The notes under the pieces: generated by a model
Databases searched by the model: none
Told to the model about the DNA's origin: nothing
The model's input: only the letters and a program-made list of their open reading frames with translations
Shown: positions 6,002 through 27,932 of the stretch, one piece after another
Layout of the letters: every line of letters begins with the position of its first letter
Position numbering within the stretch: position 1 is the stretch's first letter
Translations under genes and position numbers: made by a program
Assembly (NCBI RefSeq): GCF_036916735.1
Contig: NZ_JBALFV010000125.1
Location: forward strand, 16,022 to 48,021
Origin: Nostoc sp.
GTDB lineage: Bacteria; Cyanobacteriota; Cyanobacteriia; Cyanobacteriales; Nostocaceae
Length of the DNA: 32,000 bases
Direction: 5' to 3'

Positions 6002-7339
6002 TTGAAGAAGTTTTATATGATTATGCTAAATGTTAATAATTATAGCAATCAGAAAAAAAATCAAATATTGTTAGGTCTTGCCATCATACTATCATTAATA
6101 TTGTGTGTTGAGTTAGCAATAAGAGCTTCTCATTTTCATCTTGAAGCTTTAGCTAATACCACAGGTCGATATTTACCTGATTTTTCTAAAACTATTGACA
6201 AAATCAGAGTAGGTATAGAATACCGTTGTTTAATTATTATATATATTTTGTGGTTAATAATAAACAAAAAAAGAGATATAAGGGATATAAGTTTTATAAA
6301 AATACTAAAAAATAGTTCATTATTTTTGCTAATTGCCTTCATAAGTTATCCAATAACCACTGATATTAATTTATATGTACATTATGGTTTAATGGATTTA
6401 AATGGAATTAATCCTTTTATTAATGCTGCAAGCACATTTACCTCAAAGTTGTCTCCATTTCTAATCTGGAAACAGACTTCAACTTATGGGCCTATATCTC
6501 AACTATTTTTTATGTTTTCCGCTATTTTTGTTGCAATTACTCCAATCTTGGGAATTTATATATTTAAATTAATATGTCTTTTATTCCATATATTAAATAG
6601 TTACTTAATATGGCAGCAGTTAAAAATATCTCCTCATAAAATTAAGATAACAATTGCATATTTAATTAACCCGTATTTGCTGTATTCTCAAGTTACAAAT
6701 GCACATATTGATGTATTAATTTCTACAGTTTTAATTATTTTAATAATATGCCTCAAAAACCATAATTATATAGCTACGATTATTACAGCATGGATTGGTT
6801 TTCTAATTAAAACATTACCAATTATTTGGTTACCTCTAATATTTGTTTATTTGATTAAGCAACAACATTGGAGAATTTTATTCAGTGGTATTCGTATATC
6901 TTTAGGTATAATTTTTGTCACTTGTATTACAGCTCTACCTACAGCCGATGCTTGGAAAAGCCTTTTAAATCCTGGGGTTGGAGAAATAGTAGGTGATTCG
7001 TTATATGCTTTGGTAAAGAGTTTACTAAATTTGAAAATTCTAAACTTTTCTCTAAGTCTCCAACATACTTTATACTCAATATTTAAACCTATAATATTTT
7101 CTATATTTGTAGTTTCTTATTTGATTATTCTGGTAAAACCATATTGGAAAAAAAATTATTCTGAAACTAATCTTAGTATACATTTAGGATGGGTTACTTT
7201 AATATTATTTATGTTTGCTGCTCCTTGGTATTGCTCTTGGTATTCCTCTGTGCTGCTGGCAGTCGTGGCTTTAAACATATATTCAAAAAGATTCGCAATT
7301 ACTAGCATCGCATTCTGCATTATAAGTTCTATTGCTTAG
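6002..7339 (+). CDS. Polytopic membrane protein, GT-C-fold glycosyltransferase-like (DUF2029/GT87-like); strongly AT-rich
   Basis: 445 aa with at least 10 predicted TM segments. The first loop, TTDINLYVHYGLMDLNGINPF...STYGPISQLFF, resembles the D..Y....G.NPY ... YPP..Q motif of GT-C mannosyltransferase-like families. Start is ambiguous (TTG 6002 or ATG 6017). Composition is rich in I/L/N/K/F/Y. Confidence 0.5.
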   Translation: MKKFYMIMLNVNNYSNQKKNQILLGLAIILSLILCVELAIRASHFHLEALANTTGRYLPDFSKTIDKIRVGIEYRCLIIIYILWLIINKKRDIRDISFIKILKNSSLFLLIAFISYPITTDINLYVHYGLMDLNGINPFINAASTFTSKLSPFLIWKQTSTYGPISQLFFMFSAIFVAITPILGIYIFKLICLLFHILNSYLIWQQLKISPHKIKITIAYLINPYLLYSQVTNAHIDVLISTVLIILIICLKNHNYIATIITAWIGFLIKTLPIIWLPLIFVYLIKQQHWRILFSGIRISLGIIFVTCITALPTADAWKSLLNPGVGEIVGDSLYALVKSLLNLKILNFSLSLQHTLYSIFKPIIFSIFVVSYLIILVKPYWKKNYSETNLSIHLGWVTLILFMFAAPWYCSWYSSVLLAVVALNIYSKRFAITSIAFCIISSIA

Positions 7340-8382: not shown

Positions 8383-8561
8383 TATAATTATTTTATTTCA
8401 ATGCTTTTTAGAGGGCGGGTTTTCCGTCCCACCCCATAATAATTACAAGCCAGATACCTATTACCTAGCAGCCAAATTCCGTAGGAAGTGTTGTTGCAAA
8501 GCTTCCTTAAAGCCGATCGCAGCAACTCGTTTTAACTTTTATTCACTGAATAATATGATTT

Positions 8562-9242
8562 TCATGAAACACTAGGATCATCAGCAGTTTTGATCTCTCG
8601 CAAAATTCGTTCGACTTGATTAACTTTTTCATTTCTATTCTGTTCTTTGAAAATTTTTAAAGCTTTTTCTAAAGAAGCTAGCGCCTCATCTTTTTTATTT
8701 GTTTGCAACAATGCCAGTGCAAAATTAGTCAATGCTTCGGCATAATTAGGATTAATTTCCAGAGCTTTTTTATATTCAGTAATGGCTTCTTCCCAACTGC
8801 TTTGGCTAGCGTAAACCATACCCATCCCATTGTAAGCTAGAGCATATTTCGGTTTGAGGCGAATCGCTTCTTTATAGGCGGTAATTGCTTCTTCTGATTT
8901 CTTTTGTTGAAAAAGCGTATTTCCTAGTTGAAAGTGTCCGAAGGCATCTTCTGGGAATTTTTTAATGAGTTTACGTAAATTTTCTTCTGCGCCTTTGAAG
9001 TCTCCTTGATTATATAAAGCATTGGCTTGTTGCAGGAGCTGCGATCGCTCTGATGTATCTGTACCTGAAGATTGTGCTATTTTTTGTGGTTGTCTATGTG
9101 CAGACTGTTCTAGCGAATGTAAAGAAACTTGTCCAGGAACCGCTAACACTAATGGTGATAGACTAATTACAGTTATGATACTCAGCGTCATGCCGCTAAA
9201 AGATTGAACAAATGCTGATTTGGATTTGCGCTTCACCTTCAT
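8562..9242 (-). CDS. Secreted tetratricopeptide-repeat (TPR) protein
   Basis: 226 aa. N-terminal signal-like segment MKVKRKSKS...LSIITVISLSPLVLA, followed by about four 34-aa TPR units (e.g. AEENLRKLIKKFPEDAFGHFQLGNTL, AITAYKEAIRLKPKYALAYNGMGMVY, AITEYKKALEINPNYAEALTNFA). Confidence 0.8.
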   Translation of the reverse strand: MKVKRKSKSAFVQSFSGMTLSIITVISLSPLVLAVPGQVSLHSLEQSAHRQPQKIAQSSGTDTSERSQLLQQANALYNQGDFKGAEENLRKLIKKFPEDAFGHFQLGNTLFQQKKSEEAITAYKEAIRLKPKYALAYNGMGMVYASQSSWEEAITEYKKALEINPNYAEALTNFALALLQTNKKDEALASLEKALKIFKEQNRNEKVNQVERILREIKTADDPSVS

Positions 9243-12083: not shown

Positions 12084-12728
12084 ATGACGCTCACCGTCGA
12101 AGCTAGCAGCCTATCTCTCAACGATGTTCATCGGTTTCTCAAACTAGAAGAACTTTCCAATGGTTCATTCACAGACTTTTTAAGTCTAGAACCACTCTTT
12201 GAGTTTGAACAGCAGGATTTATTACGAATCAGAAACGACTTCCGTCGTTATTTAAGCGCAGGTAAAATTTCTGAAGGGTTGGTTAAATTTATAACAATTG
12301 CACCATTAATGCGATTAGCTGGATTTTACGATGTGCCGATTCGGTTGACAATGGAAGATAGCATTGCGATCGCAGTTGAAGATGAAGACAGAAGAATTAC
12401 TGGACGGATGGATATTTTAGCAATAAATAATCCTCAAAGTAATATTGCGCCGCCATTTTTGGTTCTAGTAATTGAAACGAAAAATAGTTCGGTCAATGTG
12501 ATTGAGGGTTTACCTCAATTAATCACTTATGCTTTTAAAAGTTTAGAGCAACAACCATCAGTTTGGGGTTTGGTAACTAATGGACAGCTTTATCAATTTG
12601 TTTATCTAAGACATGACAATCGGTCAACTTATGAGTTAATGCCATTATTAAATTTGAGTCAATCTCCAGATGCAATTGAGTTATTGCAAGTTTTCAAAGC
12701 CATTTGTAAGTTACCAAATTTTCAGTAA
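12084..12728 (+). CDS. Restriction-endonuclease-like protein (type I restriction enzyme HsdR N-terminal-like PD-(D/E)xK domain, standalone)
   Basis: 214 aa. GRMDILAI...LVLVIETKNS...GLPQLITYA...GLVTNGQLYQFVYL fits the D...(E)xK...Q...Y...TNG pattern of HSDR_N-type domains. Confidence 0.6.
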   Translation: MTLTVEASSLSLNDVHRFLKLEELSNGSFTDFLSLEPLFEFEQQDLLRIRNDFRRYLSAGKISEGLVKFITIAPLMRLAGFYDVPIRLTMEDSIAIAVEDEDRRITGRMDILAINNPQSNIAPPFLVLVIETKNSSVNVIEGLPQLITYAFKSLEQQPSVWGLVTNGQLYQFVYLRHDNRSTYELMPLLNLSQSPDAIELLQVFKAICKLPNFQ

Positions 12729-14329: not shown

Positions 14330-14770
14330 ATGGTTAATAAAAGAGAAACTCACTGCAACAATCAAGTAGATACATTTGCTGAAGCTTTAGCGACGGCGCG
14401 ACAAATGCAGCAGAACTGGCTTACTTATGGGATTGATTTTGTCAATATTTACGTTGAAGATGTCGAGGGAAACTGGCTAGAAACGTGGGGACATGATGAA
14501 ATATTAGGTAATTTTCAATTAGATACTATTAAAGAATTTTTGGTAAGTAATGATAGTGTAGCTGTTAGGGTAAGACAGCATTTAGGAGAGCGATCGCTGT
14601 TTGATTTTGCAGTAAAATTAGATGAATCTTGGAGAATTTCTGAGTTAGATGACAGGCTATCTGCTGTAAAAAATCTGCTAGCTGGTGAAGGAAATAGTGT
14701 TAATACAGATGATATCAGGTTATTGGATTTAGCAAATACTCTGGTAGGAAAGTTGGCAGAGATTTTATGA
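14330..14770 (+). CDS. Hypothetical protein
   Basis: The tracked ORF starts at GTG 14291; the first ATG (MVNKRETH...) is at 14330. It begins 29-68 nt after the previous ORF. Contains a HIP1 site (14590 region). No recognised family. Confidence 0.5.
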   Translation: MVNKRETHCNNQVDTFAEALATARQMQQNWLTYGIDFVNIYVEDVEGNWLETWGHDEILGNFQLDTIKEFLVSNDSVAVRVRQHLGERSLFDFAVKLDESWRISELDDRLSAVKNLLAGEGNSVNTDDIRLLDLANTLVGKLAEIL

Positions 14771-14876
14771 AATTTGGAATTGCGTAGTGGTAGATTAAAT
14801 TTTAAACTCAAGGGTTTTTATATTTTATTTGGTTGTGATTGGGTGGTATATAGACGATGGTTTTTGCAGACGAGCT

Positions 14877-15128
14877 TTAATAATCTTTGAGATGTGCAAT
14901 CTTTATCACTGTTAGTAGTAAGGGTTGCTCCTGAATCTGGTAAATAATGCGGTATTTACCCAAACGAACCTTATACAAGCGTTCGGTGTCCTTCAATAAG
15001 TGAGCGGCTTCTGGACGTGGATTTAATGCTAGTTCCTCTAACTTTTGTGCTAATTGTTGCTGCATTACTGAGTCTAATTCTGTAAGTTTTTGAACAGATG
15101 AAGGTGTCAATGCTACTTGGTAGCTCAT
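14877..15128 (-). CDS. Type II toxin-antitoxin system RelE/ParE family toxin
   Basis: 83 aa. ...LYKVRLGKYRIIYQIQEQPLLLTVIKIAHLKDY is the characteristic C-terminal core of PF05016-type toxins. Its start overlaps the upstream antitoxin stop by 4 nt (ATGA). Confidence 0.85.
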   Translation of the reverse strand: MSYQVALTPSSVQKLTELDSVMQQQLAQKLEELALNPRPEAAHLLKDTERLYKVRLGKYRIIYQIQEQPLLLTVIKIAHLKDY

Positions 15129-15394
15129 ATCCCTAACTCCCTTTTAATTTCTTCAAAGGGTGTTGTCCCCAGCCCTGCAATTTCCTCTAATACTATATAA
15201 GCATCTCTTACATCAGCCTCATCTAACCTTGCTTCAATCAGCTCATGCATCTGCTCTGTTGAGGTAATTTCAGTTCCTGGCTCTTCTCTAAGTTTGTCCG
15301 TTAATGCATGAAAAGCTTCTTGATCGTCTCGATGTTCCAACACATAAGCTCTTAACTCTTGTCTGGTCATTGCTTGAAAATTTGCCTTAGTCAT
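15125..15394 (-). CDS. Putative cognate antitoxin (two-part: N-terminal MT.QELRAYVLEHRDDQEAF module plus C-terminal acidic toxin-binding-like tail)
   Basis: 89 aa. Position immediately upstream of, and translationally coupled to, the RelE/ParE toxin. The acidic C-terminal segment DEADVRDAYIVLEEIAG...FEEIKRELGI resembles antitoxin partners of cyanobacterial RelE/ParE toxins. Confidence 0.65.
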   Translation of the reverse strand: MTKANFQAMTRQELRAYVLEHRDDQEAFHALTDKLREEPGTEITSTEQMHELIEARLDEADVRDAYIVLEEIAGLGTTPFEEIKRELGI

Positions 15395-15483
15395 AAATAT
15401 CTTACCCTCCCATTTAGCAATATTTCTATTTCAAAGCTTTGTCCAGCCAGAATGTAAATGCGTGTTGTCCGTTCATCTAACCT

Positions 15484-15500
15484 TACCAATTAAATTGGTA
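15484..15500. promoter_or_regulatory. Perfect 17-bp palindrome upstream of the RelE/ParE operon (candidate operator)
   Basis: TACCAATT-A-AATTGGTA read directly, 90-106 nt upstream of the antitoxin start on the minus strand. Confidence 0.3.
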
Positions 15501-15689
15501 GGTACATCTGAGTTAAATCCTGACACACCTTAAATAATTCAATTCCTTGTTCATTAGTTGGTTTCATTCAGGATCATTAACAAGTTAAATTGTCATAAAT
15601 TGCTTGCAGACGCTATTTACTTTGTTTTATTTCAAGTATACACGTAGAGACTAGATAAAAATATTACACACTTGAACCAATTGTGACTA

Positions 15690-16026
15690 ACATTTAAGCA
15701 TTTCTTGCAAATGTTAAAGCAAGAGTTACTCAGGTTGAAGCATGTATAAGAAAGGCTTAAGTTTTTCTGAAAAGATTAAATACTTTCTTATAAATGTTGA
15801 AGCAAGAGTTACTCAGGTTGAAGCATGTATAAGAAAGATTTAAGTATTTCTTACAAAGATTAAATACTTTCTTATAAATGTTGAAGCAAGAGTTACTCAG
15901 GTTGAAGCATGTATAAGAAAGGTTTAAGTATTTCTAACAAAGATTAAATATTTTCTTATAAATGTTGAAGCAATAGTTACTCAGGTTGAAACTTTGGTTA
16001 ATAACGTTGAAAGTTTTTTGTTAAAG
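15690..16026. repeat. Tandem array of about four copies of an 84-bp unit built from four 21-bp sub-units (21-bp phasing)
   Basis: GTT(G/A)AAG starts at 15713, 15734, 15796, 15817, 15880, 15901, 15964, 15985 and 16006 (spacings 21, 62, 21, 63, 21, 63, 21, 21). Unit 15796-15879 = gttgaagcaagagttactcag | gttgaagcatgtataagaaag | atttaagtatttcttacaaag | attaaatactttcttataaat. It ends about 110 nt upstream of the 16136 ORF. Confidence 0.9.
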
Positions 16027-16135
16027 GGTACACCCGACTTTCACCAGGGAAACTGGTTAGCCTCTATCTCTCTTCCATGTAAACATCTGTTATTGTATGC
16101 ATCAGTTAGGATGTTGCCAGATAAGGTAGGATATT

Positions 16136-16552
16136 TTGGAAGCAATTACAGCTAGTGCGATCGCAACCCTCGTTTTTAACAAAGCATTTGAGACAACTAT
16201 CGAGAAATTCACTGAAGCAGCCCTGGTTAAAATTGCTGAGTTGCGAAAGAAGATTTGGGAGAAGTTAAAAGGAAATTCTCAAGCCGCAACTGCCTTCGTT
16301 GAGGCTGACAAAGGCTCGAAACCAGATGTAGACAAGGTTGCTGCTTACTTGCAGAGAATTTTACGTGACGAACCGGAGTTTGCTAAAGAAGTACAAACAC
16401 TGGCTCGTGAAATTCAGGCTGGTAAGATAGTAGACAATAGCAATATGACTCAAATCAACCATGACAATGCCAAAGGATGGCAAACTAAAGTTGAGGGTGG
16501 AACAGTTTATCAAGGCGAGATTAACATTCATCATGCACCCCCCAATTCTTGA
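16136..16552 (+). CDS. Small helical effector-like protein (Bell-domain-like) with C-terminal amyloid-signalling-type motif shared with the downstream NLR
   Basis: 138 aa with a TTG start preceded by AAGGTAGGA. The N-terminus is hydrophobic/helical (MEAITASAIATLVFNKAFETTIEKF...). C-terminal residues 107-132, INHDNAKGWQTKVEGGTVYQGEINIH, repeat at the N-terminus of the next ORF. The stop lies 11 nt before the next start. Confidence 0.7.
   Translation: MEAITASAIATLVFNKAFETTIEKFTEAALVKIAELRKKIWEKLKGNSQAATAFVEADKGSKPDVDKVAAYLQRILRDEPEFAKEVQTLAREIQAGKIVDNSNMTQINHDNAKGWQTKVEGGTVYQGEINIHHAPPNS
16454..16531 (+). other. C-terminal copy of the shared ~26-aa motif (candidate bacterial amyloid signalling sequence)
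   Basis: INHDNAKGWQTKVEGGTVYQGEINIH versus SNQDNAKGWQTQVEGGTAYVGDISIY in the next gene: 18 of 26 positions identical by my count. Confidence 0.7.
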
Positions 16553-16563
16553 ATTGAGCCATC

Positions 16564-19500
16564 ATGAACCAAAGCAACCAGGATAATGCCAAGGGATGGC
16601 AAACTCAGGTTGAGGGTGGAACAGCTTATGTCGGCGATATTAGTATCTACAATTCCCCTACTAGGCAGTTACACTCATCTCCTCCAAATAATATTCCTTA
16701 TCGGGGTGTCGCCAACTTTGTCGGGCGGGATGAGAAACTTGCCCAAGTGCATGAAAAGTTGCTGCAAAACGACAACGCAGCAATTTTGGCTGTGACTGGT
16801 ATGGGGGGAATCGGTAAAACTGAACTGGCGACACAATACGCACAGCGCTACAAAGTCAATTATCCTGGTGGGCTTTGCTGGTTAGATGCCAGAAAACTAG
16901 ATTTAGCAGCAGAGATTGTCGAGTTTGCTAAGTTTTACATGAAACTGGAAGTACCGCAAACCTTATTGACTTCCCAGGAACAAGCAAAATGGTGCTGGCA
17001 TAATTGGCAACCACAAACAGGACTAGTCTTGGTAGTATTGGACAATGTTGACGATGTAACTAACTGGAAAAATTCTCACCAAGTACTGCCAACAGATAAC
17101 CGCTTTCGTATATTGATGACAACTCGGTTGCGAAATCTCGGTTCAACAGTTCAACAGATAACTTTGGATGAACTCTCATCAAACGATGCTTTGAAATTGT
17201 TGACAGCTTTGTTGGGTGAGAATGATCGGCGAGTGCAACGGGAACCACAAACGGCAGCAAATTTATGTAAATGGCTGGGATATCTGCCTTTAGGTTTGCA
17301 ATTAGTCGGCGCGTATTTGGCAGAAGATCCAAATTTGTCTTTGACAGAGATTTTACAGCGATTGCCAGCCCAGCAACAATCTCAATTGGAAGCCGTATTT
17401 GAATTAAGCTGGCAACAACTCGATTATATGACAAAGTATGTCGGTGAGTTGTTGAGTTTATTTGCCTCAGATATGATTCCTTGGCAAATAGTTGAATCTG
17501 TCAGTCAGCAGCTAAATTGGGCAAAGGCAGATGTTGACGAGGCGAGAAAGCAACTTTATCAGCGTCATTTAATTCAAAGCGTAGCAGAAAGAGAAAGTTG
17601 CTATAAAATTCATCCTTTAATTAGGGAGTTTTTGCAGGGGAAATTAGTAGGGTTAAACACAGCCGATGACCTCAAAAAAGCCTTTGCCGCAGCATTAGTA
17701 GAAATTGCTCAGAAAATACCTGAATCTCTCACCCTTGAGGATATCAAATCAGTGCAGCTGGCAATTCCACACTTGACTGAGGTGGCACAAAATCTGATTG
17801 ATGTTGTGGAGGATGAAAATTTATTTTGGGTTTTCACTGGCTTGGGCAGATTTTATCAAGGACAGGGTTTGTATACCCTAGCAGCACCTTGGTATGAGCA
17901 AGGATTATCAACGGTGCAAACCCGTTTGGGAGAGGAACATCGCCATGTTGCCACCAGCCTGAACAACCTGGCATTACTCTACAATTCTCAAGGACGCTAC
18001 GACCAAGCCGAACCCCTGTTTCTGCAAGCTTTAGAACTGAGAAAACGCCTGCTGGGAGATGCACATCCCGATGTTGCCGCCAGCCTGAACAACCTGGCAT
18101 TACTCTACAATTCTCAAGGACGCTACGACCAAGCCGAACCCCTGTTTCTGCAAGCTTTAGAACTGAGTAAACGCCTGCTGGGAGAGGAACATCGCCATGT
18201 TGCCACCAGCCTGAACAACCTGGCATCACTCTACAATTCTCAAGGACGCTACGACCAAGCCGAACCCCTGTTTCTGCAAGCTTTAGAACTGAGAAAACGC
18301 CTGCTGGGAGATGCACATCCCGATGTTGCCGCCAGCCTGAACAACCTGGCAAATCTCTACGATTTTCAAGGACGCTACGACCAAGCCGAACCCCTGTTTC
18401 TGCAAGCTTTAGAACTTTATAAACGCCTGCTGGGAGAAGCACATCCCGATGTTGCCACCAGCCTGAACTTGCTGGCAAATCTCTACAATTCTCAAGGACG
18501 CTACGACCAAGCCGAACCCCTGTTGCTGCAAGCTTTAGAACTTTATAAACGCCTGCTGGGAGATGCACATCCCGATGTTGCCGCCAGCCTGAACAACCTG
18601 GCAAATCTCTACGATTTTCAAGGACGCTACGACCAAGCCGAACCCCTGTTTCTGCAAGCTTTAGAACTTTATAAACGCCTGCTGGGAGAAGCACATCCCG
18701 ATGTTGCCACCAGCCTGAACTTGCTGGCAAATCTCTACAATTCTCAAGGACGCTACGACCAAGCCGAACCCCTGTTGCTGCAAGCTTTAGAACTGAGTAA
18801 ACGCCTGCTGGGAGAAGAAAATCCCTCAGTTGCCACCAGCCTGAACAACCTGGCATCACTCTACTATTCTCAAGGACGCTACGACCAAGCCGAACCCCTG
18901 TTTCTGCAAGCTTTAGAACTTTATAAACGCCTGCTGGGAGAAGCACATCCCCATGTTGCCACCAGCCTGAGCAACCTGGCAAATCTCTACAATTCTCAAG
19001 GACGCTACGACCAAGCCGAACCCCTGTATCTGCAAGCTTTAGAACTTTATAAACGCCTGCTGGGAGAAGAACATCCCGATTTTGCCATCAGCCTGAACAA
19101 CCTGGCATTACTCTACAATTCTCAAGGACGCTACGACCAAGCCGAACCCCTGTATCTGCAAGCTTTAGAACTGAGTAAACGCCTGCTGGGAGAAGCACAT
19201 CCCCATGTTGCCAGCAGCCTGAACAACTTGGCATTACTCTACGATTCTCAAGGACGCTACGACCAAGCCGAACCCCTGTTACTGCAAGCTTTAGAACTGA
19301 GAAAACGCCTGCTGGGAGAAGCACATCCCGATTTTGCCACTAGCCTGAACAACCTGGCATTACTCTACAATTCTCAAGGACGCTACGACCAAGCTGAACC
19401 CCTGTATCTGCAAGCTTTAGAACTTAATAAACGCCTGCTGGGAGATGCACATCCCGATTTTGCCACCAGCCTGAACAACCTGGCATTACTCTACAAATCT

Positions 19501-19827
19501 CAAGGACGCTACGACCAAGCCGAACCCCTGTATCTGCAAGCTTTAGAACTGAGTAAACGCCTGCTGGGAGAAGCACATCCCTCTGTTGCCACCAGCCTGA
19601 ACAACCTGGCATTACTCTACGATTCTCAAGGACGCTACGACCAAGCCGAACCCCTGTTTCTGCAAGCTTTAGAAATTCGTCAGCAGGTGTTTGGGGTGAA
19701 TCATCCCAATACGGTTACTGTTCGGCAAAATCTGGAAAATCTTCAAGCTCAAAAGAGTGCTAACCGTAAAGTTAAAAATAATACTAATAATTCCTTGTGG
19801 AAGAAGTTTTTAGGGTTATTTGAGTGA
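16564..19827 (+). CDS. NLR-like STAND NTPase: N-terminal ~30-aa signalling motif + NB-ARC domain + 14 near-identical 42-aa TPR repeats
   Basis: 1087 aa. NB-ARC motifs: P-loop GMGGIGKT (aa 79-86, nt 16798-16821), Walker B LVLVVLDNVDD (aa 154-164), RILMTTR (aa 182-188), GLPL-type LPLGLQLVG (aa 241-249). The C-terminal half is TPR_10/TPR_12-type (kinesin-light-chain-like) repeats. No enzymatic N-terminal effector domain; only the short motif is present. Confidence 0.9.
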   Translation: MNQSNQDNAKGWQTQVEGGTAYVGDISIYNSPTRQLHSSPPNNIPYRGVANFVGRDEKLAQVHEKLLQNDNAAILAVTGMGGIGKTELATQYAQRYKVNYPGGLCWLDARKLDLAAEIVEFAKFYMKLEVPQTLLTSQEQAKWCWHNWQPQTGLVLVVLDNVDDVTNWKNSHQVLPTDNRFRILMTTRLRNLGSTVQQITLDELSSNDALKLLTALLGENDRRVQREPQTAANLCKWLGYLPLGLQLVGAYLAEDPNLSLTEILQRLPAQQQSQLEAVFELSWQQLDYMTKYVGELLSLFASDMIPWQIVESVSQQLNWAKADVDEARKQLYQRHLIQSVAERESCYKIHPLIREFLQGKLVGLNTADDLKKAFAAALVEIAQKIPESLTLEDIKSVQLAIPHLTEVAQNLIDVVEDENLFWVFTGLGRFYQGQGLYTLAAPWYEQGLSTVQTRLGEEHRHVATSLNNLALLYNSQGRYDQAEPLFLQALELRKRLLGDAHPDVAASLNNLALLYNSQGRYDQAEPLFLQALELSKRLLGEEHRHVATSLNNLASLYNSQGRYDQAEPLFLQALELRKRLLGDAHPDVAASLNNLANLYDFQGRYDQAEPLFLQALELYKRLLGEAHPDVATSLNLLANLYNSQGRYDQAEPLLLQALELYKRLLGDAHPDVAASLNNLANLYDFQGRYDQAEPLFLQALELYKRLLGEAHPDVATSLNLLANLYNSQGRYDQAEPLLLQALELSKRLLGEENPSVATSLNNLASLYYSQGRYDQAEPLFLQALELYKRLLGEAHPHVATSLSNLANLYNSQGRYDQAEPLYLQALELYKRLLGEEHPDFAISLNNLALLYNSQGRYDQAEPLYLQALELSKRLLGEAHPHVASSLNNLALLYDSQGRYDQAEPLLLQALELRKRLLGEAHPDFATSLNNLALLYNSQGRYDQAEPLYLQALELNKRLLGDAHPDFATSLNNLALLYKSQGRYDQAEPLYLQALELSKRLLGEAHPSVATSLNNLALLYDSQGRYDQAEPLFLQALEIRQQVFGVNHPNTVTVRQNLENLQAQKSANRKVKNNTNNSLWKKFLGLFE
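16573..16650 (+). other. N-terminal copy of the shared ~26-aa motif on the NLR
   Basis: SNQDNAKGWQTQVEGGTAYVGDISIY (aa 4-29), matching the C-terminus of the upstream ORF. Confidence 0.7.
17926..19689 (+). repeat. Fourteen tandem 126-bp (42-aa) coding repeats, near-identical at nucleotide level
   Basis: Consensus LGEAHPDVATSLNNLALLYNSQGRYDQAEPLFLQALELxKRL. The first unit starts at L455 (nt 17926) and the 14th ends at nt 19689. Includes a perfect ~248-bp tandem duplicate (18295-18542 = 18547-18794). Confidence 0.95.
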
Positions 19828-20197
19828 AGCAAAAGTTGTAATCGCCAAAATATCTTCAGATTCTAAATCGTTATAATCTTTCAATATTTATTCAGTACTC
19901 ATACCAGAACTGAGCAGTTCCAAAATAAATTCAACTGGATAACGAAGTCCTCGAATACAGGGTTTACCGTGGCAGATTTCTGGATTATGAGTAATGCGTT
20001 GTAGAAGGGGAGCATCTCACTTTTTTGCATGTCATTGCGAGCGAAGCGAAGCAACCGCAAAATCCTCCAACTCAAAGCGAGTCCTGCGATTGCTTCGTCG
20101 TTCCTCCTCTCTACGAGACGCTACTCGCGAACGCAATAACAATTTTTCATTAAAAAATGAAAACTGGGATGCACTCTTCTAGAAGTGTGTCATTCAT
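19816..20197 (-). pseudogene. DUF433-family (antitoxin-like) gene disrupted by a MITE insertion and by an in-frame TAA
   Basis: Minus-strand translation of 20003-19816 gives [62 protein letters not shown], with the internal stop at 19888-19890. Removing 20004-20179 plus one TA joins ATG(20197) AAT GAC ACA CTT C-TA CAA..., giving [14 protein letters not shown]... The last 12 nt overlap the NLR 3' end convergently. Confidence 0.75.
20004..20179. mobile_element. 176-bp MITE-like element with imperfect terminal inverted repeats, flanked by TA/TA
   Basis: The left end GAAGGGGAGCATCTCAC and the reverse complement of the right end GAAGAGTGCATCCCAG are similar. TA sits at 20002-20003 and 20180-20181. 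An internal imperfect hairpin pairs CGAAGCAACCGCA with TGCGATTGCTTCG, and the element carries the Nostoc-type motifs GTCATTGCGAGCGAAGCGAAGCAA and CTCTACGAGACGCT. It interrupts an otherwise restorable ORF. Confidence 0.7.
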
Positions 20198-20368
20198 CAA
20201 GAAATATTCATAAATTATGACGATATTTTTGTTCTCATATTTTAATTCTAAATACCAAATAACGACAGCAGAAAAGTAATTGTAGCTACAAATAAATACT
20301 TTTTACTTTTAATTTATTTTTGATTTAGGGTATTTACAAGTATAAAAATATACTTTAATATATAAATA

Positions 20369-20412
20369 AGAAAGGCGATCGCCCTCTGCCAAGAAACTGC
20401 GATCGCCTTTCT
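20369..20412. repeat. 14-bp-stem hairpin built on two HIP1 sites
   Basis: AGAAAGGCGATCGC (20369-20382) and GCGATCGCCTTTCT (20399-20412) are exact reverse complements with a 16-nt loop, about 30 nt upstream of the 20442 ORF. Confidence 0.7.
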
Positions 20413-20441
20413 ATAAACCCCCATTCTGGGAGACAATTACA

Positions 20442-20738
20442 ATGATGGCACAAGTACAAAAGTTTGTAAAAAATCACAAGTTCGCCCAATTAGAATTACA
20501 ACAGTACTTAGAGGGCGAATTAAATACACCCATCCTGAATCAATCTTCTGAAAATCAATTACCGAAAAGAGAACCGATTAAACATCTATTAATAGGTTCT
20601 CCAAAAGCAGTTACTAGCACAATTCACTATCTGCAAGTGATTGGCTACGCCAGCATCGGCGATTGGAGTCCGCTATTACCAACCGCCAACCCAGGCGAGG
20701 TAATGAGTATTTTAATCCGTCAGATTTTAATGCAATAG
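20442..20738 (+). CDS. Hypothetical small protein
   Basis: 98-aa ORF with GGGAGA about 9 nt before the ATG, followed by a GC-rich hairpin. No recognised family. Confidence 0.55.
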   Translation: MMAQVQKFVKNHKFAQLELQQYLEGELNTPILNQSSENQLPKREPIKHLLIGSPKAVTSTIHYLQVIGYASIGDWSPLLPTANPGEVMSILIRQILMQ

Positions 20739-20751
20739 GACATATCAAGAT

Positions 20752-20780
20752 GGTGCGTTGTCGCAAGGGCGCAACGCACC
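20752..20780 (+). terminator. GC-rich stem-loop after the 20442-20738 ORF
   Basis: GGTGCGTTG(T)CGC - AAGG - GCGCAACGCACC: a 12-bp stem with one bulge, starting 14 nt after the stop. No U-tract, so it may instead be a dispersed palindromic repeat. Confidence 0.4.
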
Positions 20781-20841
20781 CTACTTGAACTTCATCTGTC
20801 CTAGGGGTTTAGCAATGTGTTAAACCCAAAAAGCAGTGATT

Positions 20842-21135
20842 TTAATCAGAGAATAGCGCCTCTAAATCGCGGTAGTCACTTACTATCCGCACAACTTCAA
20901 TCCCCTCTGCAATTTGGCGATAAAATATCAAATAATCATCAACTGGAAAGCTTCGTAACGCAGGTAAAAGTTCATCCCGTCTGCGTCCCATACTAGGAAA
21001 CTGTGCTAAAGTATCCAACTTTTGAGTGATGATTGTGAATAATCTATCTGCAATATCTGGATTTCCAGCAAATAGGTAATCGTTAATTTATTGTAAGTCT
21101 TCGGTAGCTTGAAGCGATAGAAAATATAAACTCAT
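20842..21135 (-). pseudogene. parE: ParE family toxin gene inactivated by a premature TAA at codon 16
   Basis: Minus-strand translation: MSLYFLSLQATEDLQ*INDYLFAGNPDIADRLFTIITQKLDTLAQFPSMGRRRDELLPALRSFPVDDYLIFYRQIAEGIEVVRIVSDYRDLEALFSD*. The stop is at 21088-21090. The ATG overlaps the parD stop (TAATG). 294 nt = 98 codons in a single frame. Confidence 0.8.
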
Positions 21136-21676: not shown

Positions 21677-22399
21677 ATGCTAGACCGAATTTTTGATTAC
21701 CTCGACTTTCATTTCAGCATTGAAGCCCCTATAGTTCTGCTGATCCTGGTGCTTTTAGAGGCGCTCTTATCTGCCGACAATGCGATCGCTCTGGCTGCGA
21801 TCGCTAGGGGGCTGGAAGACGAAGAACTTGAGCGTAAAGGACTCAACTTTGGTTTAGTCGTTGCTTATGTGCTGCGAATCACCCTGATTCTCACTGCCAC
21901 TTGGGTGCAACAATTCTGGCAATTTGAATTATTGGGTGCTGCTTATCTGCTGTGGTTGGTATTCCAACACTTTACCTCTCAACAAAGTGAAGACGATCAC
22001 TATCACGGACCGCGTTTTAATTCATTGTTGCAAGCGATACCTGTGATTGCCTTTACAGATTTGGCATTTTCTTTAGATAGCGTGACAACAGCGATCGCAG
22101 TTTCTCAAGAAAAATGGCTAGTGCTGACGGGTGCAACAATTGGTATTATTACGCTGCGATTCATGGCAGGATTGTTTATTCGTTGGCTAGACGAATATGA
22201 AAACCTAGAAGACGCAGGCTATGTAACTGTAGCGTTGGTAGGCTTGCGCTTGTTATTGAAAGTGGTAAACGATAGTTTAGTTCCACCAGAATGGATCATG
22301 ATTGCTGCCATCTTCCTAATTTTAGGCTGGGGATTTTCCAAGCGTGTTGGTACTGAATTACCCCAAGTAGAACCAGAGAAGAGCGAAGTCTCGAAGTAA
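21677..22399 (+). CDS. terC: TerC family integral membrane protein
   Basis: 240 aa. EALLSADNAIALAAIARGL and the second half-repeat DLAFSLDSVTTAIAVS are the duplicated TerC (PF03741) signature segments. Multi-pass hydrophobic profile. Confidence 0.85.
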   Translation: MLDRIFDYLDFHFSIEAPIVLLILVLLEALLSADNAIALAAIARGLEDEELERKGLNFGLVVAYVLRITLILTATWVQQFWQFELLGAAYLLWLVFQHFTSQQSEDDHYHGPRFNSLLQAIPVIAFTDLAFSLDSVTTAIAVSQEKWLVLTGATIGIITLRFMAGLFIRWLDEYENLEDAGYVTVALVGLRLLLKVVNDSLVPPEWIMIAAIFLILGWGFSKRVGTELPQVEPEKSEVSK

Positions 22400-22481
22400 G
22401 TGAAAAGTTACGAGTTAGGAGTGAGAAGTTAGGAGTGAGGAGTTAAGAGTTATTATTTATGAATTTTTAACTCCTAACTTT

Positions 22482-23229: not shown

Positions 23230-25245
23230 ATGGGTGTTGATCCAACTGCTACATCTGACGAGGTGGTACAAGTACCGTCCAATGGACACAAAGAAGTGAA
23301 AAATCATAAGCAAAAAAAACTGTTATCACCTAGTCCTACCACAGGAGATTTACCTCGCTCTTGGAAAATTGAGGATAGCGAAGCCTTATACAGGATTGAA
23401 GGTTGGGGACAACCTTATTTTTCCATTAGCGCTGCCGGACACATTACCGTGGCACCTAAAGGCGATCGCGGGGGATCTCTTGACTTGTTTGAATTGGTCA
23501 ACGCCATGAAACAGCGCAACTTGGGACTTCCTATGTTGATTCGCTTTTCCGATATTTTGGAAGACCGGATTGAACGGTTAAATGCTTGTTTTGCTAAAGC
23601 GATCGCCCGCTATAATTACCCTGGTGTCTACCGTGGTGTGTTTCCCGTAAAATGCAATCAAGAACGGCATTTGATTGAGGATTTAGTGAAATTTGGCAAG
23701 CCCCATCAATTTGGTTTAGAAGCCGGTTCCAAGCCAGAATTAATGATTGCTCTAGCTGTCTTGGATACACCAGGAGCATTGTTAGTTTGCAACGGCTACA
23801 AAGACCGAGAATACATCGAAACGGCAATGCTAGCCCAAAGACTAGGGCAAACACCAATTATCGTTTTAGAACAGATTGAAGAAGTTGATTTGGTGATTGA
23901 TGCCAATCGCCAGTTAGGTATTAAGCCAATATTAGGTGTTCGTGCTAAACTCAGTACCCAAGGCATGGGACGTTGGGGAACCTCTAGTGGCGATCGCGCT
24001 AAATTTGGTTTGACAATGCCTGAAGTAATCGAGGCTGTTGACAAGTTACGGGAAGCTAACCTACTCGATTCTTTGCAGTTGATGCACTTCCATATCGGCT
24101 CACAAATCTCTGCCATTAATGTAATTAAAGATGCTATCCAAGAAGCCAGCCGCATCTATGTAGAATTGGCAATGCTGGGAGCGGATATGAAATACCTTGA
24201 TGTTGGTGGCGGCTTGGGCGTAGATTATGATGGCTCCCAAACCAACTTCTATGCATCGAAAAATTACAACATGCAGAACTATGCTAACGACATCGTGGCA
24301 GAGTTAAAAGATACCTGTGCCGAGCGGCAGATTTCCGTACCAACACTGATTAGCGAAAGTGGACGAGCGATCGCTTCCCATCAGTCAGTGCTGATTTTTG
24401 ATGTTCTCAGTACTAGTGATGTCCCCCTCGATATACCAGAACCTCCGCAAGAGGGAGAATCCCCAATTATTAATTACCTTTGGGAAAGCTTCCAATCCAT
24501 CAACCAAGAGAATTACCAAGAGTTGTACCACGACGCTGCACAATTCAAAGAAGAAGCGATCAGCAGGTTCAACTTAGGAATTTTACGCCTCAGAGAACGA
24601 GCCAAAGCCGAACGCCTCTATTGGGCTTGTTGTCAGAAAATTCTCAAGATAACTAGACAGCAAGAATACGTACCCGATGAACTGGAAGACCTAGAACAAA
24701 TTATGGCTTCCATCTACTACGTGAATATGTCAGTGTTTCAATCAGCACCAGATTGCTGGGCGATCGATCAGCTATTCCCAATCATGCCAATCCACCGCTT
24801 AGATGAAGAACCAACACGGCGGGGAATTTTAGCAGACCTCACCTGTGATAGTGATGGTAAAATCGACCGCTTTATAGACCTGCGCGATGTCAAATCGGTT
24901 TTAGAGTTACACTCTTACAAGCCCGGAGAACCCTATTATTTGGGGATGTTCTTGAATGGAGCTTACCAAGAAATCATGGGCAATTTGCACAACCTATTTG
25001 GCGACACCAACGCCGTTCACATCCAATTAACCCCCAAAGGCTACCAGATTGAACACGTTGTCAAAGGTGACACCATGAGCGAAGTGGTAAGCTACGTCCA
25101 GTATGACTCTGAAGATATGGTGGAAAACATTCGCCAGCGTTGCGAGAAAGCATTAGAAGAAAAGCGCATCACCCTAGCAGAATCTCAGCGACTGCTACAA
25201 ACCTACGAACAGAGTCTCAGAAGATATACGTACTTAAATAGTTAG
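23230..25245 (+). CDS. speA: Biosynthetic arginine decarboxylase
   Basis: 671 aa. W..EDSEALYRIEGWG.PYFSI...G, PVKCNQ, the PLP-fold segment FHIGSQI, and the C-terminal pattern typical of SpeA. Confidence 0.95.
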   Translation: MGVDPTATSDEVVQVPSNGHKEVKNHKQKKLLSPSPTTGDLPRSWKIEDSEALYRIEGWGQPYFSISAAGHITVAPKGDRGGSLDLFELVNAMKQRNLGLPMLIRFSDILEDRIERLNACFAKAIARYNYPGVYRGVFPVKCNQERHLIEDLVKFGKPHQFGLEAGSKPELMIALAVLDTPGALLVCNGYKDREYIETAMLAQRLGQTPIIVLEQIEEVDLVIDANRQLGIKPILGVRAKLSTQGMGRWGTSSGDRAKFGLTMPEVIEAVDKLREANLLDSLQLMHFHIGSQISAINVIKDAIQEASRIYVELAMLGADMKYLDVGGGLGVDYDGSQTNFYASKNYNMQNYANDIVAELKDTCAERQISVPTLISESGRAIASHQSVLIFDVLSTSDVPLDIPEPPQEGESPIINYLWESFQSINQENYQELYHDAAQFKEEAISRFNLGILRLRERAKAERLYWACCQKILKITRQQEYVPDELEDLEQIMASIYYVNMSVFQSAPDCWAIDQLFPIMPIHRLDEEPTRRGILADLTCDSDGKIDRFIDLRDVKSVLELHSYKPGEPYYLGMFLNGAYQEIMGNLHNLFGDTNAVHIQLTPKGYQIEHVVKGDTMSEVVSYVQYDSEDMVENIRQRCEKALEEKRITLAESQRLLQTYEQSLRRYTYLNS

Positions 25246-25357
25246 GAGTTAGGAGTGAAGAGTTACGAATAATGTTAAGAGTTAGAAGTGAAGAGGAAAA
25301 CACAAACTTCTAACTCCTAACTCCTAACTCCTAACTCCAAACTTCTAACTCCTAACT
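25241..25357. repeat. STRR region: TTAGGAG units followed by inverted CTCCTAA units between convergent genes
   Basis: gttaggagttaggagtgaag... then ...cttctaactcctaactcctaactcctaactccaaacttctaactcctaac. It starts within the speA stop codon and ends at the stop of the minus-strand gene. Confidence 0.85.
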
Positions 25358-27886: not shown

Positions 27887-27932
27887 TTTTTGAATTTTGA
27901 ATTTTGAATTTTGAATTTTGAATTTTGAATTG
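27887..27932. repeat. Heptamer tandem repeat (GAATTTT/TTTGAAT, about 6 copies)
   Basis: tttttgaattttgaattttgaattttgaattttgaattttgaattga read directly. It sits between scpA and the AI-2E permease gene, next to a dispersed-repeat block at 27685-27850. Confidence 0.9.

What the first reader, a model, noticed from the sequence alone, without database searches (positions are those of the whole stretch)
15690..16026. 21-bp-phased, 84-bp tandem array immediately upstream of the NLR module
About four head-to-tail copies of an 84-bp unit are present, each made of four 21-bp sub-units. Two sub-units start with GTTGAAGCA and two are of the form ATT(T)AA(G)TA(T/C)TTCTTA. GTT(G/A)AAG starts at 15713, 15734, 15796, 15817, 15880, 15901, 15964, 15985 and 16006, so the motif keeps a 21-bp register (two helical turns) for more than 300 bp. 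Within each unit TATAAGAAAG and CTTTCTTATA are perfect inverted repeats about 30 nt apart. A TTACAA-N16-TATAAA promoter-like pair sits just before each GTTGAAG. There are no unique spacers, so this is not a CRISPR array. Possible roles: (i) phased binding sites for a regulator of the downstream cell-death operon; (ii) a tandem promoter/sRNA array analogous to the NsiR1 repeats upstream of hetF in Anabaena; (iii) iteron-like remnants of a mobile replicon that delivered the island. None of the annotated features explains it.
Basis: seen in the sequence. Interest (0 to 1): 0.65.

Follow-up and report, generated by a model that had tools for sequence, protein, structure and literature searches.

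The report
Locus-specific 84-bp minisatellite upstream of NLR operon
The repeat is real: it is an AT-rich, non-coding tandem array found at only one chromosomal spot in a small group of Nostoc strains, it changes copy number from strain to strain and drifts at about the neutral rate, and so it looks like an ordinary minisatellite rather than an RNA gene array, a plasmid remnant or a proven regulatory platform.

Summary
The array is confirmed. It has three full 83/84-bp units plus degenerate partial units at both edges (15669-16026), and each unit is built from four related 21-bp sub-repeats. It lies 110 bp upstream of a Bell-like/NB-ARC-TPR (BASS-type NLR) gene pair.

Homologous arrays turned up only at this syntenic site, in nine related Nostoc assemblies, with 2-5.8 units. 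Three other close relatives have none. Four assemblies keep the array even though the NLR operon has been replaced by ZorABC or deleted. Paralogous Bell-NLR loci have no array.

Units are more alike within an array (0.83-0.94) than between arrays (0.76-0.89). The between-array value equals identity at 4-fold degenerate sites of flanking genes (0.80-0.86), which indicates near-neutral, concerted evolution.

Negative results:
- All reading frames are closed, and the mini-ORF shows no coding signature.
- No Rfam family matches, and there is no DIF1 motif or terminator.
- Hairpin stability is not conserved.
- The claimed TTACAA-N16-TATAAA pair is exact only once.
- There is no plasmid or phage match, no rep/par gene and no notable curvature.
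- Invariant columns do not single out a 21-bp motif (p about 0.08).

Best reading is a lineage-specific higher-order minisatellite (VNTR) in the operon's upstream region, with at most a modulatory effect on transcription. A phased protein-binding role is not excluded. Interest is low to moderate.

The parts
15669..15710 (.). Degenerate left edge of the array: an A-like sub-repeat (cacttgaaccaattgtgacta) followed by a C sub-repeat (acatttaagcatttcttgcaa).
   Evidence: Phased 21-mer listing. Partial profile hit at 15669-15718. It matches the C-to-A junction seen in L069 and L123.
15711..15793 (.). Unit 1 (83 bp), sub-repeats A-B-C-D. One base is missing in C/D.
15794..15877 (.). Unit 2 (84 bp), sub-repeats A-B-C-D. 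It holds the only exact TTACAA-N16-TATAAA pair (15851-15878, whose last base lies in unit 3).
15878..15961 (.). Unit 3 (84 bp), sub-repeats A-B-C-D. The second arm of the inverted repeat has one mismatch.
15962..16026 (.). Terminal partial unit A-B'-X (atgttgaagcaatagttactc / aggttgaaactttggttaata / acgttgaaagttttttgttaa). This non-homogenised right edge is alignable in all orthologs, although L132 and L133 lack one 21-mer of it.
   Evidence: (81-92% identity).
16007..16034 (+). Candidate promoter at the array/unique junction: TTGAAA (core of the last sub-repeat), N16, TACACC. Orthologs L069, L121 and L123 read TACACT. In the window the final T is missing, so the site is weak here.
   Evidence: The tool called this site in L123 at 2870-2897. 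The other sequences were read. Inference only.
16081..16135 (+). Most conserved non-coding block, reading as promoter or 5'UTR. It contains an extended -10-like TGTTATTGT at 16088-16096 and AAGGTAGGA just before the TTG start codon.
   Evidence: 87-95% identical across loci, against about 0.81 at 4-fold sites. It is retained in L139, which has no array.
16136..16552 (+). 138-aa Bell-like effector gene. Its C-terminal motif is repeated at the N-terminus of the NLR.
16564..19827 (+). NB-ARC + TPR (NLR-type) gene, 1087 aa.
   Evidence: NB-ARC 3.3e-20; TPR_12 3.5e-255.
14877..15567 (-). ParE / DUF6887 / DUF6888 module on the left of the array. The DUF6888 reading frame is interrupted by a stop codon in the window. 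The module is present in some orthologous loci only, so it is not part of the array's conserved context.

Best explanation
The array is a lineage-specific, non-coding, AT-rich higher-order minisatellite (VNTR). A 21-bp segment was duplicated to 42 bp and then 84 bp. The 84-bp unit has since been amplified, contracted and homogenised by replication slippage or unequal recombination in the upstream region of a Bell-NLR operon.

The sequence itself evolves at about the neutral rate. The array is not an RNA gene array, a coding remnant, a dispersed mobile repeat or a replicon remnant.

If it has any effect, it most likely acts in cis and depends on dosage or spacing. It changes the amount of AT-rich DNA, and the number of -35-like TTGAAG/TTGAAA hexamers, directly upstream of the operon's promoter region, and so may modulate transcription.

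Shown: the anatomy, single-locus distribution, copy-number polymorphism, concerted near-neutral evolution, and persistence or loss independent of the operon. Inferred: the slippage mechanism and any effect on transcription.
For: - Structure: 3.5 copies at 94% identity, with hierarchical 21/42/84-bp periodicity and degenerate edges.
- Single locus: a degenerate D-A junction pattern found 4 stretches in 241 million metagenome records, all at the same syntenic site. It found none in viral contigs. A unit profile hits nothing else in the window or in any fetched flank.
- Copy number by TRF: window 3.5, L069 2.8, L123 3.8, L130 2.3, L132 5.8, L133 3.3, L141 2.6. L121 has about 2 units. L136, L138 and L139 have none, although their o229 protein is 94-97% identical to the window's.
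- Several length changes are whole sub-repeats: a 63-bp unit in L069, and a 21-bp deletion in the terminal part of L132 and L133.
- Concerted evolution: within-array unit identity is 0.83-0.94; between the window and other arrays it is 0.76-0.89. Lineage-specific variants fill all units of an array, for example AGGTTGAAG/GCAAGAG in the window against ACGTT/GCAATTG elsewhere.
- Rate: 4-fold-site identity of flanking genes is 0.80-0.86, the same range as the array. The adjacent promoter/5'UTR block is 0.87-0.95.
- Independence from the operon: L130/L131, L132, L133 and L141 keep 2-5.8 units although the Bell gene is truncated and the NLR is replaced by ZorA1/B1/C1 or deleted. Four paralogous Bell-family loci, three with an adjacent NB-ARC/TPR gene (L125, L127, L134, L135), have no tandem array.
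- Negative tests for other kinds of element.
Against: - All five loci with an intact NLR operon carry at least a partial array, against four of seven without it. That would fit a function tied to the operon, although it is not significant (hypergeometric p about 0.16) and the loci are not independent.
- The array has persisted, with its 21-bp register largely intact, across lineages about 20% diverged at silent sites.
- The core ATAAGAAA/TTTCTTAT inverted repeat is almost invariant across the 20 units (five of its eight pairs never vary; four units depart at one pair each).
- The last sub-repeat supplies a -35-like hexamer of a candidate promoter.
- No expression or binding data exist, so a regulatory role cannot be ruled out.
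Confidence: 0.55

Rival explanations
1. The 21-bp sub-repeats are phased binding sites, about 16 on one face of the helix. A trans-acting DNA-binding or nucleoid-associated protein would bind them to silence or activate the Bell-NLR cell-death operon, with copy number setting the threshold.
For: - The 21-bp register holds over about 340 bp.
- TT.AA is retained in every sub-repeat type.
- The array sits immediately upstream of the candidate promoter(s), and its last repeat provides a -35-like TTGAAA.
- All five intact-operon loci have it.
- AT content is 72% against 60% for the window.
Against: - Invariant columns are not significantly concentrated on shared 21-mer positions (p = 0.07-0.09).
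- Overall divergence equals the silent-site rate.
- Register-breaking indels are tolerated: -1 bp in the window and in L130, +4 bp in L121.
- No regulator gene co-varies with the array.
- The array persists, and is even longest, where the operon is gone (L132).
- Paralogous Bell-NLR loci lack any array.
- The motif occurs nowhere else in the window.
Confidence: 0.2
2. Each unit is a small transcription unit or promoter, giving an NsiR1-like tandem sRNA array or tandem promoters that read into the operon.
For: - It is a tandem direct-repeat array upstream of a gene in a Nostocales genome, with central copies near-identical and peripheral copies diverged, as in NsiR1 (PMC9045159).
- Window units fold better than shuffles on both strands (z -2.3 to -3.5).
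- A TAnnnT-type hexamer (TATTTT/TACTTT) is present in D of most units (reading).
- A few G-U-compatible changes occur on the + strand.
Against: - No Rfam family matches at E <= 10.
- No DIF1 TCCGGA motif is present.
- No sigma-70-like or terminator-like site falls in the array in the window, L132 or L123.
- The TTACAA-N16-TATAAA pair is exact once, and reads TTGTGA/TTATGA in L069.
- The alifold consensus is only -3.3 kcal/mol, with a single compensatory event.
- Orthologous units fold no better than shuffles.
- Structure-breaking changes are about as frequent as wobble-preserving ones.
Confidence: 0.1
3. The array is mainly a recombinogenic or fragile sequence at the border of a defence-gene hotspot, and it promotes deletion and exchange of the downstream cargo (NLR, Zorya or empty). 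This is not exclusive of the best explanation.
For: - The site between o159 and o89/TerC carries different cargo in close relatives.
- Two of three array-affecting deletions have a breakpoint at or inside the array edge: L139 at its 3' end, and L141 inside the last A sub-repeat.
Against: - The NLR-to-Zorya replacement shares one breakpoint inside the Bell gene, next to a MITE-like element, not in the array.
- The number of events is very small.
- No recombinase or att-like features were seen.
Confidence: 0.08
4. The array is an iteron- or centromere-like remnant of a plasmid or other mobile replicon that delivered the island.
For: It has 21-bp direct repeats with about two helical turns of spacing. 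It has an inverted repeat inside a longer unit, as in F sopC (established knowledge).
Against: - There is no rep, par, integrase or transposase gene in the window around it.
- Flanks are housekeeping genes (acs, ndk, arginine decarboxylase, TerC), syntenic in a 7.2-Mb record, apparently a chromosome.
- blastn finds no match in 72,556 plasmids or 50,697 phage records.
- The pattern finds no viral contig.
Confidence: 0.03

Closest known systems
Bacterial intergenic minisatellites / VNTR loci (e.g. MIRU-VNTR loci of Mycobacterium tuberculosis; established knowledge)
   Same: - Head-to-tail non-coding units of tens of bp in an intergenic region.
- Copy number differs between close strains.
- Units are homogenised within an array and edges are degenerate.
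- Assemblies break inside it (L129).
   Different: MIRUs are a dispersed family at tens of loci, and some carry short coupled ORFs. This unit was found at one locus only, has a 21/42/84-bp hierarchical structure, and shows no coding signature.
NsiR1 tandem sRNA array upstream of hetF in Nostoc sp. PCC 7120 (PMC9045159)
   Same: Tandem direct repeats upstream of a gene in a heterocystous cyanobacterium. Inner copies are identical or nearly so, and outer copies are diverged.
   Different: NsiR1 has 12 copies of an sRNA of about 60 nt, each with its own DIF1-containing promoter. Here there is no DIF1 motif, no Rfam match, no terminator, no conserved promoter hexamers and no conserved stable fold.
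Plasmid iterons and partition centromere arrays (e.g. 17-22-bp iterons; F sopC 43-bp repeats with internal inverted repeats; established knowledge)
   Same: Direct repeats keep a register of about two helical turns, and the longer unit contains an inverted repeat.
   Different: There is no adjacent rep or par gene, the site is chromosomal and syntenic, no plasmid matches, and the sequence evolves neutrally.
Higher-order repeat organisation of satellite DNA (concept from eukaryotic alpha-satellites; established knowledge)
   Same: Diverged monomers (A, B, C, D at 57-76% identity) form a higher-order unit, and that unit is what gets amplified and homogenised (within-array 83-94%).
   Different: The scale is a few copies and about 340 bp, in a bacterial intergenic region. 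This is an analogy of evolutionary mechanism only.

Membership tests
Bacterial intergenic minisatellite (VNTR) | Head-to-tail repeats with a unit of roughly 10-100 bp, non-coding | tested here: met
   Period 84, 3.5 copies, 94%. Every frame on both strands carries at least 7 stop codons. The mini-ORF has variable columns 8/5/8 at codon positions 1/2/3.
Bacterial intergenic minisatellite (VNTR) | Copy number polymorphic among related strains at the same locus | tested here: met
   0 units (L136, L138, L139), then about 2 (L121), 2.3, 2.6, 2.8, 3.3, 3.5, 3.8 and 5.8 units at the syntenic site.
Bacterial intergenic minisatellite (VNTR) | Concerted evolution: units more alike within than between arrays; degenerate edge copies | tested here: met
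   Within-array identity 0.83-0.94; window against other arrays 0.76-0.89. Edge sub-repeats are degenerate.
NsiR1-type tandem sRNA array | Each repeat has its own promoter with the DIF1 motif (TCCGGA) | tested here: not met
   TCCGGA occurs only at 5464 and 11402 in the window, with none in the array. No sigma-70-like site falls in the array.
NsiR1-type tandem sRNA array | Sequence/structure match to a described RNA family; conserved stable fold with a terminator | tested here: not met
   No Rfam family at E <= 10 in 14500-17000. Zero terminator-like sites. Alifold gives -3.3 kcal/mol. Orthologous units have z +0.2 and +0.5.
NsiR1-type tandem sRNA array | Discrete transcripts of about 60 nt from each unit | not testable with these tools
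   No transcriptome data for this strain were available.
Plasmid iterons / partition centromere | Short direct repeats in helical register | tested here: met
   Lag-21 self-identity 0.58 against 0.29 background.
Plasmid iterons / partition centromere | Adjacent rep or par gene; location on a plasmid or other replicon | tested here: not met
   Neighbours are ParE/DUF6887, Bell, NLR, Uma2, acs, TerC, ndk and speA. The site is syntenic in a 7.2-Mb record, apparently a chromosome. No PLSDB or phage match.
CRISPR array | Repeats separated by unique spacers; cas genes nearby | tested here: not met
   Units are contiguous with no spacers. No cas-type domains appeared among the neighbours scanned.
Dispersed repeat family (MITE / REP / MIRU-like) | Copies at many unrelated loci of the genome | tested here: not met
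   All 4 metagenome hits and every profile hit lie at the one syntenic locus.
Intrinsically curved upstream DNA | A/T tracts phased at about 10.5 bp; strongly curved predicted path | tested here: not met
   AA/TT Fourier power at 10.5 bp is 0.1. The end-to-end/contour ratio of 0.74 ranks 75th of 634 segments (wedge angles recalled from memory, so approximate).
Cyanobacterial STRR repeats | Tandem heptamer units | tested here: not met
   The unit is 84/21 bp. True heptamer arrays lie elsewhere in the window (22406, 25240-25357, 27888).

The most novel reading that the evidence does not exclude
The array is a copy-number-tunable loading platform. About 16 phased 21-bp sites, each carrying a -35-like TTGAAG/TTGAAA core, would be bound cooperatively by a trans-acting protein (or would sequester RNA polymerase). 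That binding would set the basal expression, and hence the firing threshold, of an amyloid-signalling Bell-NLR cell-death operon. Strains with 0 to 6 units would then form a natural allelic series.
Probability: 0.12. Interest if true: 0.55.

Novelty: new member of a known kind. Interest (0 to 1): 0.25.

Why it matters
As it stands, this finding matters only modestly.
- It documents a clean example of a hierarchical (21/42/84 bp) single-locus minisatellite in a cyanobacterial chromosome, evolving in concert at the silent-site rate.
- It explains assembly breaks at this locus.
- It could serve as a strain-typing marker for this Nostoc clade.

If the minority reading were true, it would be a rare case of repeat-number control of a bacterial NLR/amyloid-signalling death operon. 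Natural alleles with 0, 2, 3 and about 6 units would make that directly testable.

The comparative work also shows that this site is a defence-gene hotspot where a Bell-NLR pair and a ZorABC module replace each other.

Tried and rejected
1. The first collection scan, GTTGAAGCA-N12-GTTGAAGCA on genome contigs, was too loose. Only L069 was a true homologue.

2. A 12-codon mini-ORF (MLKQELLRLKHV) sits in each unit. It is open in 14 of 20 units, but variable columns are spread 8/5/8 over codon positions and there is no Shine-Dalgarno sequence. Rejected as coding.

3. A heptad or coiled-coil pseudogene origin (21 bp = 7 codons): every frame on both strands carries at least 7 stop codons in the window, and the two other full-length arrays tested also have stops in every frame.

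4. An 11-nt inverted repeat flanks the intergenic region (15598-15608 and 16137-16147). The left arm belongs to the conserved 3' flank of o159 and is also present in the empty site L136. The right arm is not conserved (9/12 in L069). Treated as chance.

5. Intrinsic curvature: not notable.

6. NtcA (GTA-N8-TAC), IHF, DnaA-box and Tn7/CAST-end resemblances were considered by eye. None fits, and none was pursued.

7. Structure covariation: the main stem is almost invariant, so it is uninformative. There is only one compensatory event, in a 4-bp inner helix.

8. Search for analogous arrays upstream of four paralogous Bell-family loci (three with an NLR gene): none found.

Full report
OBSERVATION

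The repeat exists as described. Tandem Repeats Finder gives 15701-15990 with period 84, 3.5 copies, 94% matches and score 503. It also gives a weaker 21-bp row.
- GTTGAAGCA occurs six times in 32 kb, all inside the array, against 0.42 expected.
- A 44-mer covering two sub-repeats recurs three times with at most one mismatch.
- Self-identity of the array is 0.58 at lag 21, 0.51 at lag 42 and 0.52 at lag 63, against 0.29 +/- 0.05 at other lags. Within one consensus unit it is 0.61 against 0.29.

So the sub-structure of four 21-mers is real.

I label the sub-repeats as follows:
- A = atgttgaagcaagagttactc
- B = aggttgaagcatgtataagaa
- C = aggtttaagtatttcttacaa
- D = agattaaatactttcttataa

The window reads a'-C | ABCD | ABCD | ABCD | A-B'-X from 15669 to 16026.

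- Unit 1 is 83 bp.
- The last two listed motifs, at 15985 and 16006, read GTTGAAA.
- The inverted repeat is perfect in two of the three units.
- The exact TTACAA-N16-TATAAA pair occurs once, not before each GTTGAAG.

ANATOMY AND CONTEXT

The array has 27.6% G+C, against 40.3% for the window. Every frame on both strands carries at least 7 stop codons.

It lies in a 741-bp gap.
- On the left, on the minus strand, is a ParE / DUF6887 / DUF6888 module (14877-15567). Its DUF6888 frame carries a stop codon.
- On the right is a 138-aa gene (16136-16552) followed by an NB-ARC + TPR gene (16564-19827).

The C-terminus of the 138-aa protein (NAKGWQTKVEGGTVYQGEINIH) is repeated at the N-terminus of the NLR (NAKGWQTQVEGGTAYVGDISIY). 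That is the Bell/BASS amyloid-signalling arrangement described in bioRxiv 10.1101/2020.01.06.895854.

Further out are housekeeping genes: acetyl-CoA synthetase, TerC, nucleoside diphosphate kinase and arginine decarboxylase. There is also a Uma2 gene. There is no rep, par, integrase or transposase gene.

COMPARATIVE EVIDENCE

Homologous arrays were found only at the same syntenic site, in nine related Nostoc assemblies including the window.

How they were found:
- Through the 138-aa protein's orthologs (about 80% identity): L069 (Nostoc sp. ChiVER01), L121/L122, L123/L124 and L129, whose contig breaks inside the array.
- Through a degenerate D-A junction pattern scanned over 241 million metagenome records: four stretches, L130, L131, L132 and L133, all syntenic. 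The same pattern found no viral contig.
- Through the conserved upstream core gene o229: L141 (Nostoc sp. UIC 10890, a 7.2-Mb record) with 2.6 units.

Three close relatives (o229 94-97% identical) have no array:
- L136 is an empty site.
- L138 has the ParE/DUF6887/DUF6888 module plus Zorya.
- L139 keeps the promoter block and the start of the Bell gene, but the array has been replaced by other sequence.

Copy numbers by TRF are 2.3 (L130), 2.6 (L141), 2.8 (L069), 3.3 (L133), 3.5 (window), 3.8 (L123) and 5.8 (L132). L121 has about 2 units.

A unit profile (nhmmer) hits nothing else in the 32-kb window or in any fetched flank. Four paralogous Bell-family loci at about 60% protein identity, three of them with an adjacent NB-ARC/TPR gene (L125, L127, L134, L135), have no tandem array upstream. 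blastn of the array finds nothing in PLSDB plasmids or in the phage collection.

INDEPENDENCE FROM THE OPERON

In L130/L131, L132, L133 and L139 the Bell gene is cut roughly 30-95 nt after its start, next to a MITE-like element. The NLR is then absent.
- L130, L131, L138, L139 and L141 carry ZorA1/ZorB1/ZorC1 homologues instead.
- L133 is empty.

Yet L130/L131, L132, L133 and L141 keep 2-5.8 units, and L132 has the longest and a well-homogenised array (91% by TRF).

All five loci with an intact operon have the array, against four of seven without it. This is not significant (hypergeometric p about 0.16), and the loci are not phylogenetically independent.

EVOLUTIONARY RATE

Identity at 4-fold degenerate sites of flanking genes between the window and the other loci is 0.80-0.86.

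Mean unit identity between the window's array and the others is 0.76-0.89. Within arrays it is 0.83-0.94. The non-homogenised terminal part is 0.81-0.92 identical.

The block 16081-16135 is 0.87-0.95 identical and is retained even in the array-less L139. That pattern is what a functional promoter or 5'UTR would look like.

So the array evolves at about the silent-site rate, with concerted evolution. Variants such as AGGTTGAAG/GCAAGAG (window) against ACGTT/GCAATTG (other loci) fill all units of their arrays.

Length changes include whole sub-repeats: a 63-bp unit in L069, and a 21-bp deletion in L132 and L133. They also include register-breaking indels: -1 bp in the window and in L130, and +4 bp in L121. 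In one lineage group a 42-bp period is also visible (A resembles C at 76%), which points to a 21 -> 42 -> 84 history.

TESTS OF FUNCTIONAL READINGS

RNA
- No Rfam family matches at E <= 10.
- No terminator-like site is found in the window, L132 or L123.
- The alignment of 20 units gives a consensus fold of only -3.3 kcal/mol. Its main stem ATAAGAAA/TTTCTTAT is almost invariant (five of eight pairs never vary), so it carries almost no covariation signal. There is a single compensatory event, in a 4-bp inner helix. Structure-breaking changes are about as frequent as wobble-preserving ones.
- Window units fold better than shuffles on both strands (z -2.3 to -3.5), but units from L132 and L123 do not (z +0.2 and +0.5).

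Promoters
- No sigma-70-like site falls inside any of the three arrays scanned (window, L132, L123).
- There is no DIF1 motif.
- One candidate promoter sits at the array/unique junction: TTGAAA-N16-TACACT in L123, L069 and L121. It uses the core of the last sub-repeat as its -35. In the window the -10 reads TACACC (16007-34).
- A second candidate is the extended -10-like TGTTATTGT at 16088-16096.
- Both candidates are inferences.

Protein-binding motif
- 42 of 84 columns are invariant across 20 units.
- They are not significantly concentrated at the same 21-mer positions (permutation p = 0.07-0.09).

Curvature
- AA/TT power at 10.5 bp is negligible.
- A wedge-model path ranks the array 75th of 634 segments (the wedge parameters were recalled from memory).

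Coding
- The 12-codon ATG...TAA mini-ORF is open in 14 of 20 units.
- It shows no third-position excess of variation (8/5/8) and has no Shine-Dalgarno sequence.

INTERPRETATION

The simplest account that fits everything is a lineage-specific higher-order minisatellite. It is maintained and resized by slippage or unequal recombination in the upstream region of the Bell-NLR operon. Its sequence drifts neutrally, and it is gained, resized or lost without regard to what lies downstream (confidence 0.55). Any effect is most likely a cis, dosage or spacing effect on the adjacent promoter region.

Rivals:
- A phased binding platform for a trans-acting protein (0.20). This is not excluded, because binding proteins and expression could not be tested.
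- A tandem sRNA or promoter array (0.10).
- A recombinogenic hotspot border (0.08, not exclusive of the best explanation).
- An iteron or centromere remnant (0.03).

COMPARISON WITH KNOWN KINDS

The array meets the features of a bacterial intergenic VNTR: non-coding head-to-tail units, copy-number polymorphism and concerted evolution. It differs from MIRU-type families in being single-locus.

It fails the testable defining features of NsiR1-type arrays, iteron or centromere arrays, CRISPR arrays, dispersed repeat families, STRR repeats and curved upstream DNA (see the membership table).

I file it as a new member of a known kind.

LIMITS

- The genome-contig scan was truncated.
- The metagenome pattern requires a fairly conserved D-A junction, so very diverged or dispersed relatives could be missed.
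- No complete genome of the source strain could be scanned.
- Units and loci are not independent samples.
- No expression or binding data exist.

Noticed in passing
window 16136-16552 and 16564-16650: The C-terminus of the 138-aa protein (NAKGWQTKVEGGTVYQGEINIH) is nearly repeated at the N-terminus of the NB-ARC/TPR protein (NAKGWQTQVEGGTAYVGDISIY). This is a paired amyloid-signalling (BASS-type) motif, as in Bell-NLR gene pairs.
   Followed up: partly
window 14771-21134; loci L130, L131, L133, L136, L138, L139, L141: The interval between o159 and the ParD-like o89/TerC genes is a variable defence hotspot in close Nostoc relatives. It holds a Bell-NLR pair, ZorA1/ZorB1/ZorC1 (no ZorD seen), or nothing. 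A ParE/DUF6887/DUF6888 module is present or absent independently of that cargo.
   Followed up: partly
L130 ~6330-6560; L132; L133; L139 ~8540-8640: In NLR-less loci the Bell gene is cut roughly 30-95 nt after its start, next to a MITE-like element (GTAGCTGTAGGGTGTGTTACGGCTTCCGTAACGCACC...). The near-identical breakpoint suggests a single ancestral event.
   Followed up: no
window 15391-15567 (minus strand): The DUF6888 gene of the toxin-antitoxin-like module has an in-frame TAA where L123 has Tyr26, so it is probably a pseudogene in this strain.
   Followed up: yes
window 17927-19674: The TPR region of the NLR gene is itself a 126-bp tandem array (13.9 copies, 92%). Orthologous proteins range from 584 aa (L121) to 1087 aa, so repeat number varies inside the sensor domain too.
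   Followed up: no
window 22399-22452, 25240-25357, 27888-27931: Tandem heptamer arrays (AGTTAGG, AACTCCT, TTTTGAA) of the cyanobacterial STRR type sit in intergenic regions. A HIP1 site (GCGATCGC) lies at 16158.
   Followed up: no
L125 ~2912-2917; L127 ~2938-2943: Paralogous Bell-NLR loci in Calothrix carry TCCGGA, the DIF1 heterocyst-promoter motif, about 60-90 nt upstream of the Bell gene. In L127 it is followed 19 nt later by TATCAT. This may hint at cell-type-specific expression of some Bell-NLR modules.
   Followed up: no
window 15597-15620: The element AAATTGCTTGCAGACGCTATTTAC left of the array is conserved in L069, L121 and L123, and in diverged form in the empty site L136. It therefore belongs to the 3' flank of o159 rather than to the array or the NLR module. 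Its function is unknown.
   Followed up: partly
L133 2848-2933: A 40-bp segment of the promoter-proximal region just downstream of the array is duplicated (2.2 copies, 97%) in this NLR-less locus.
   Followed up: no
window 12084-12728: The conserved 214-aa gene upstream gives a weak PD-(D/E)xK nuclease hit in PADLOC (1.5e-9). Its neighbours o229 and o159 have no family match in Pfam or PADLOC, although o229 is conserved across Nostocales.
   Followed up: no
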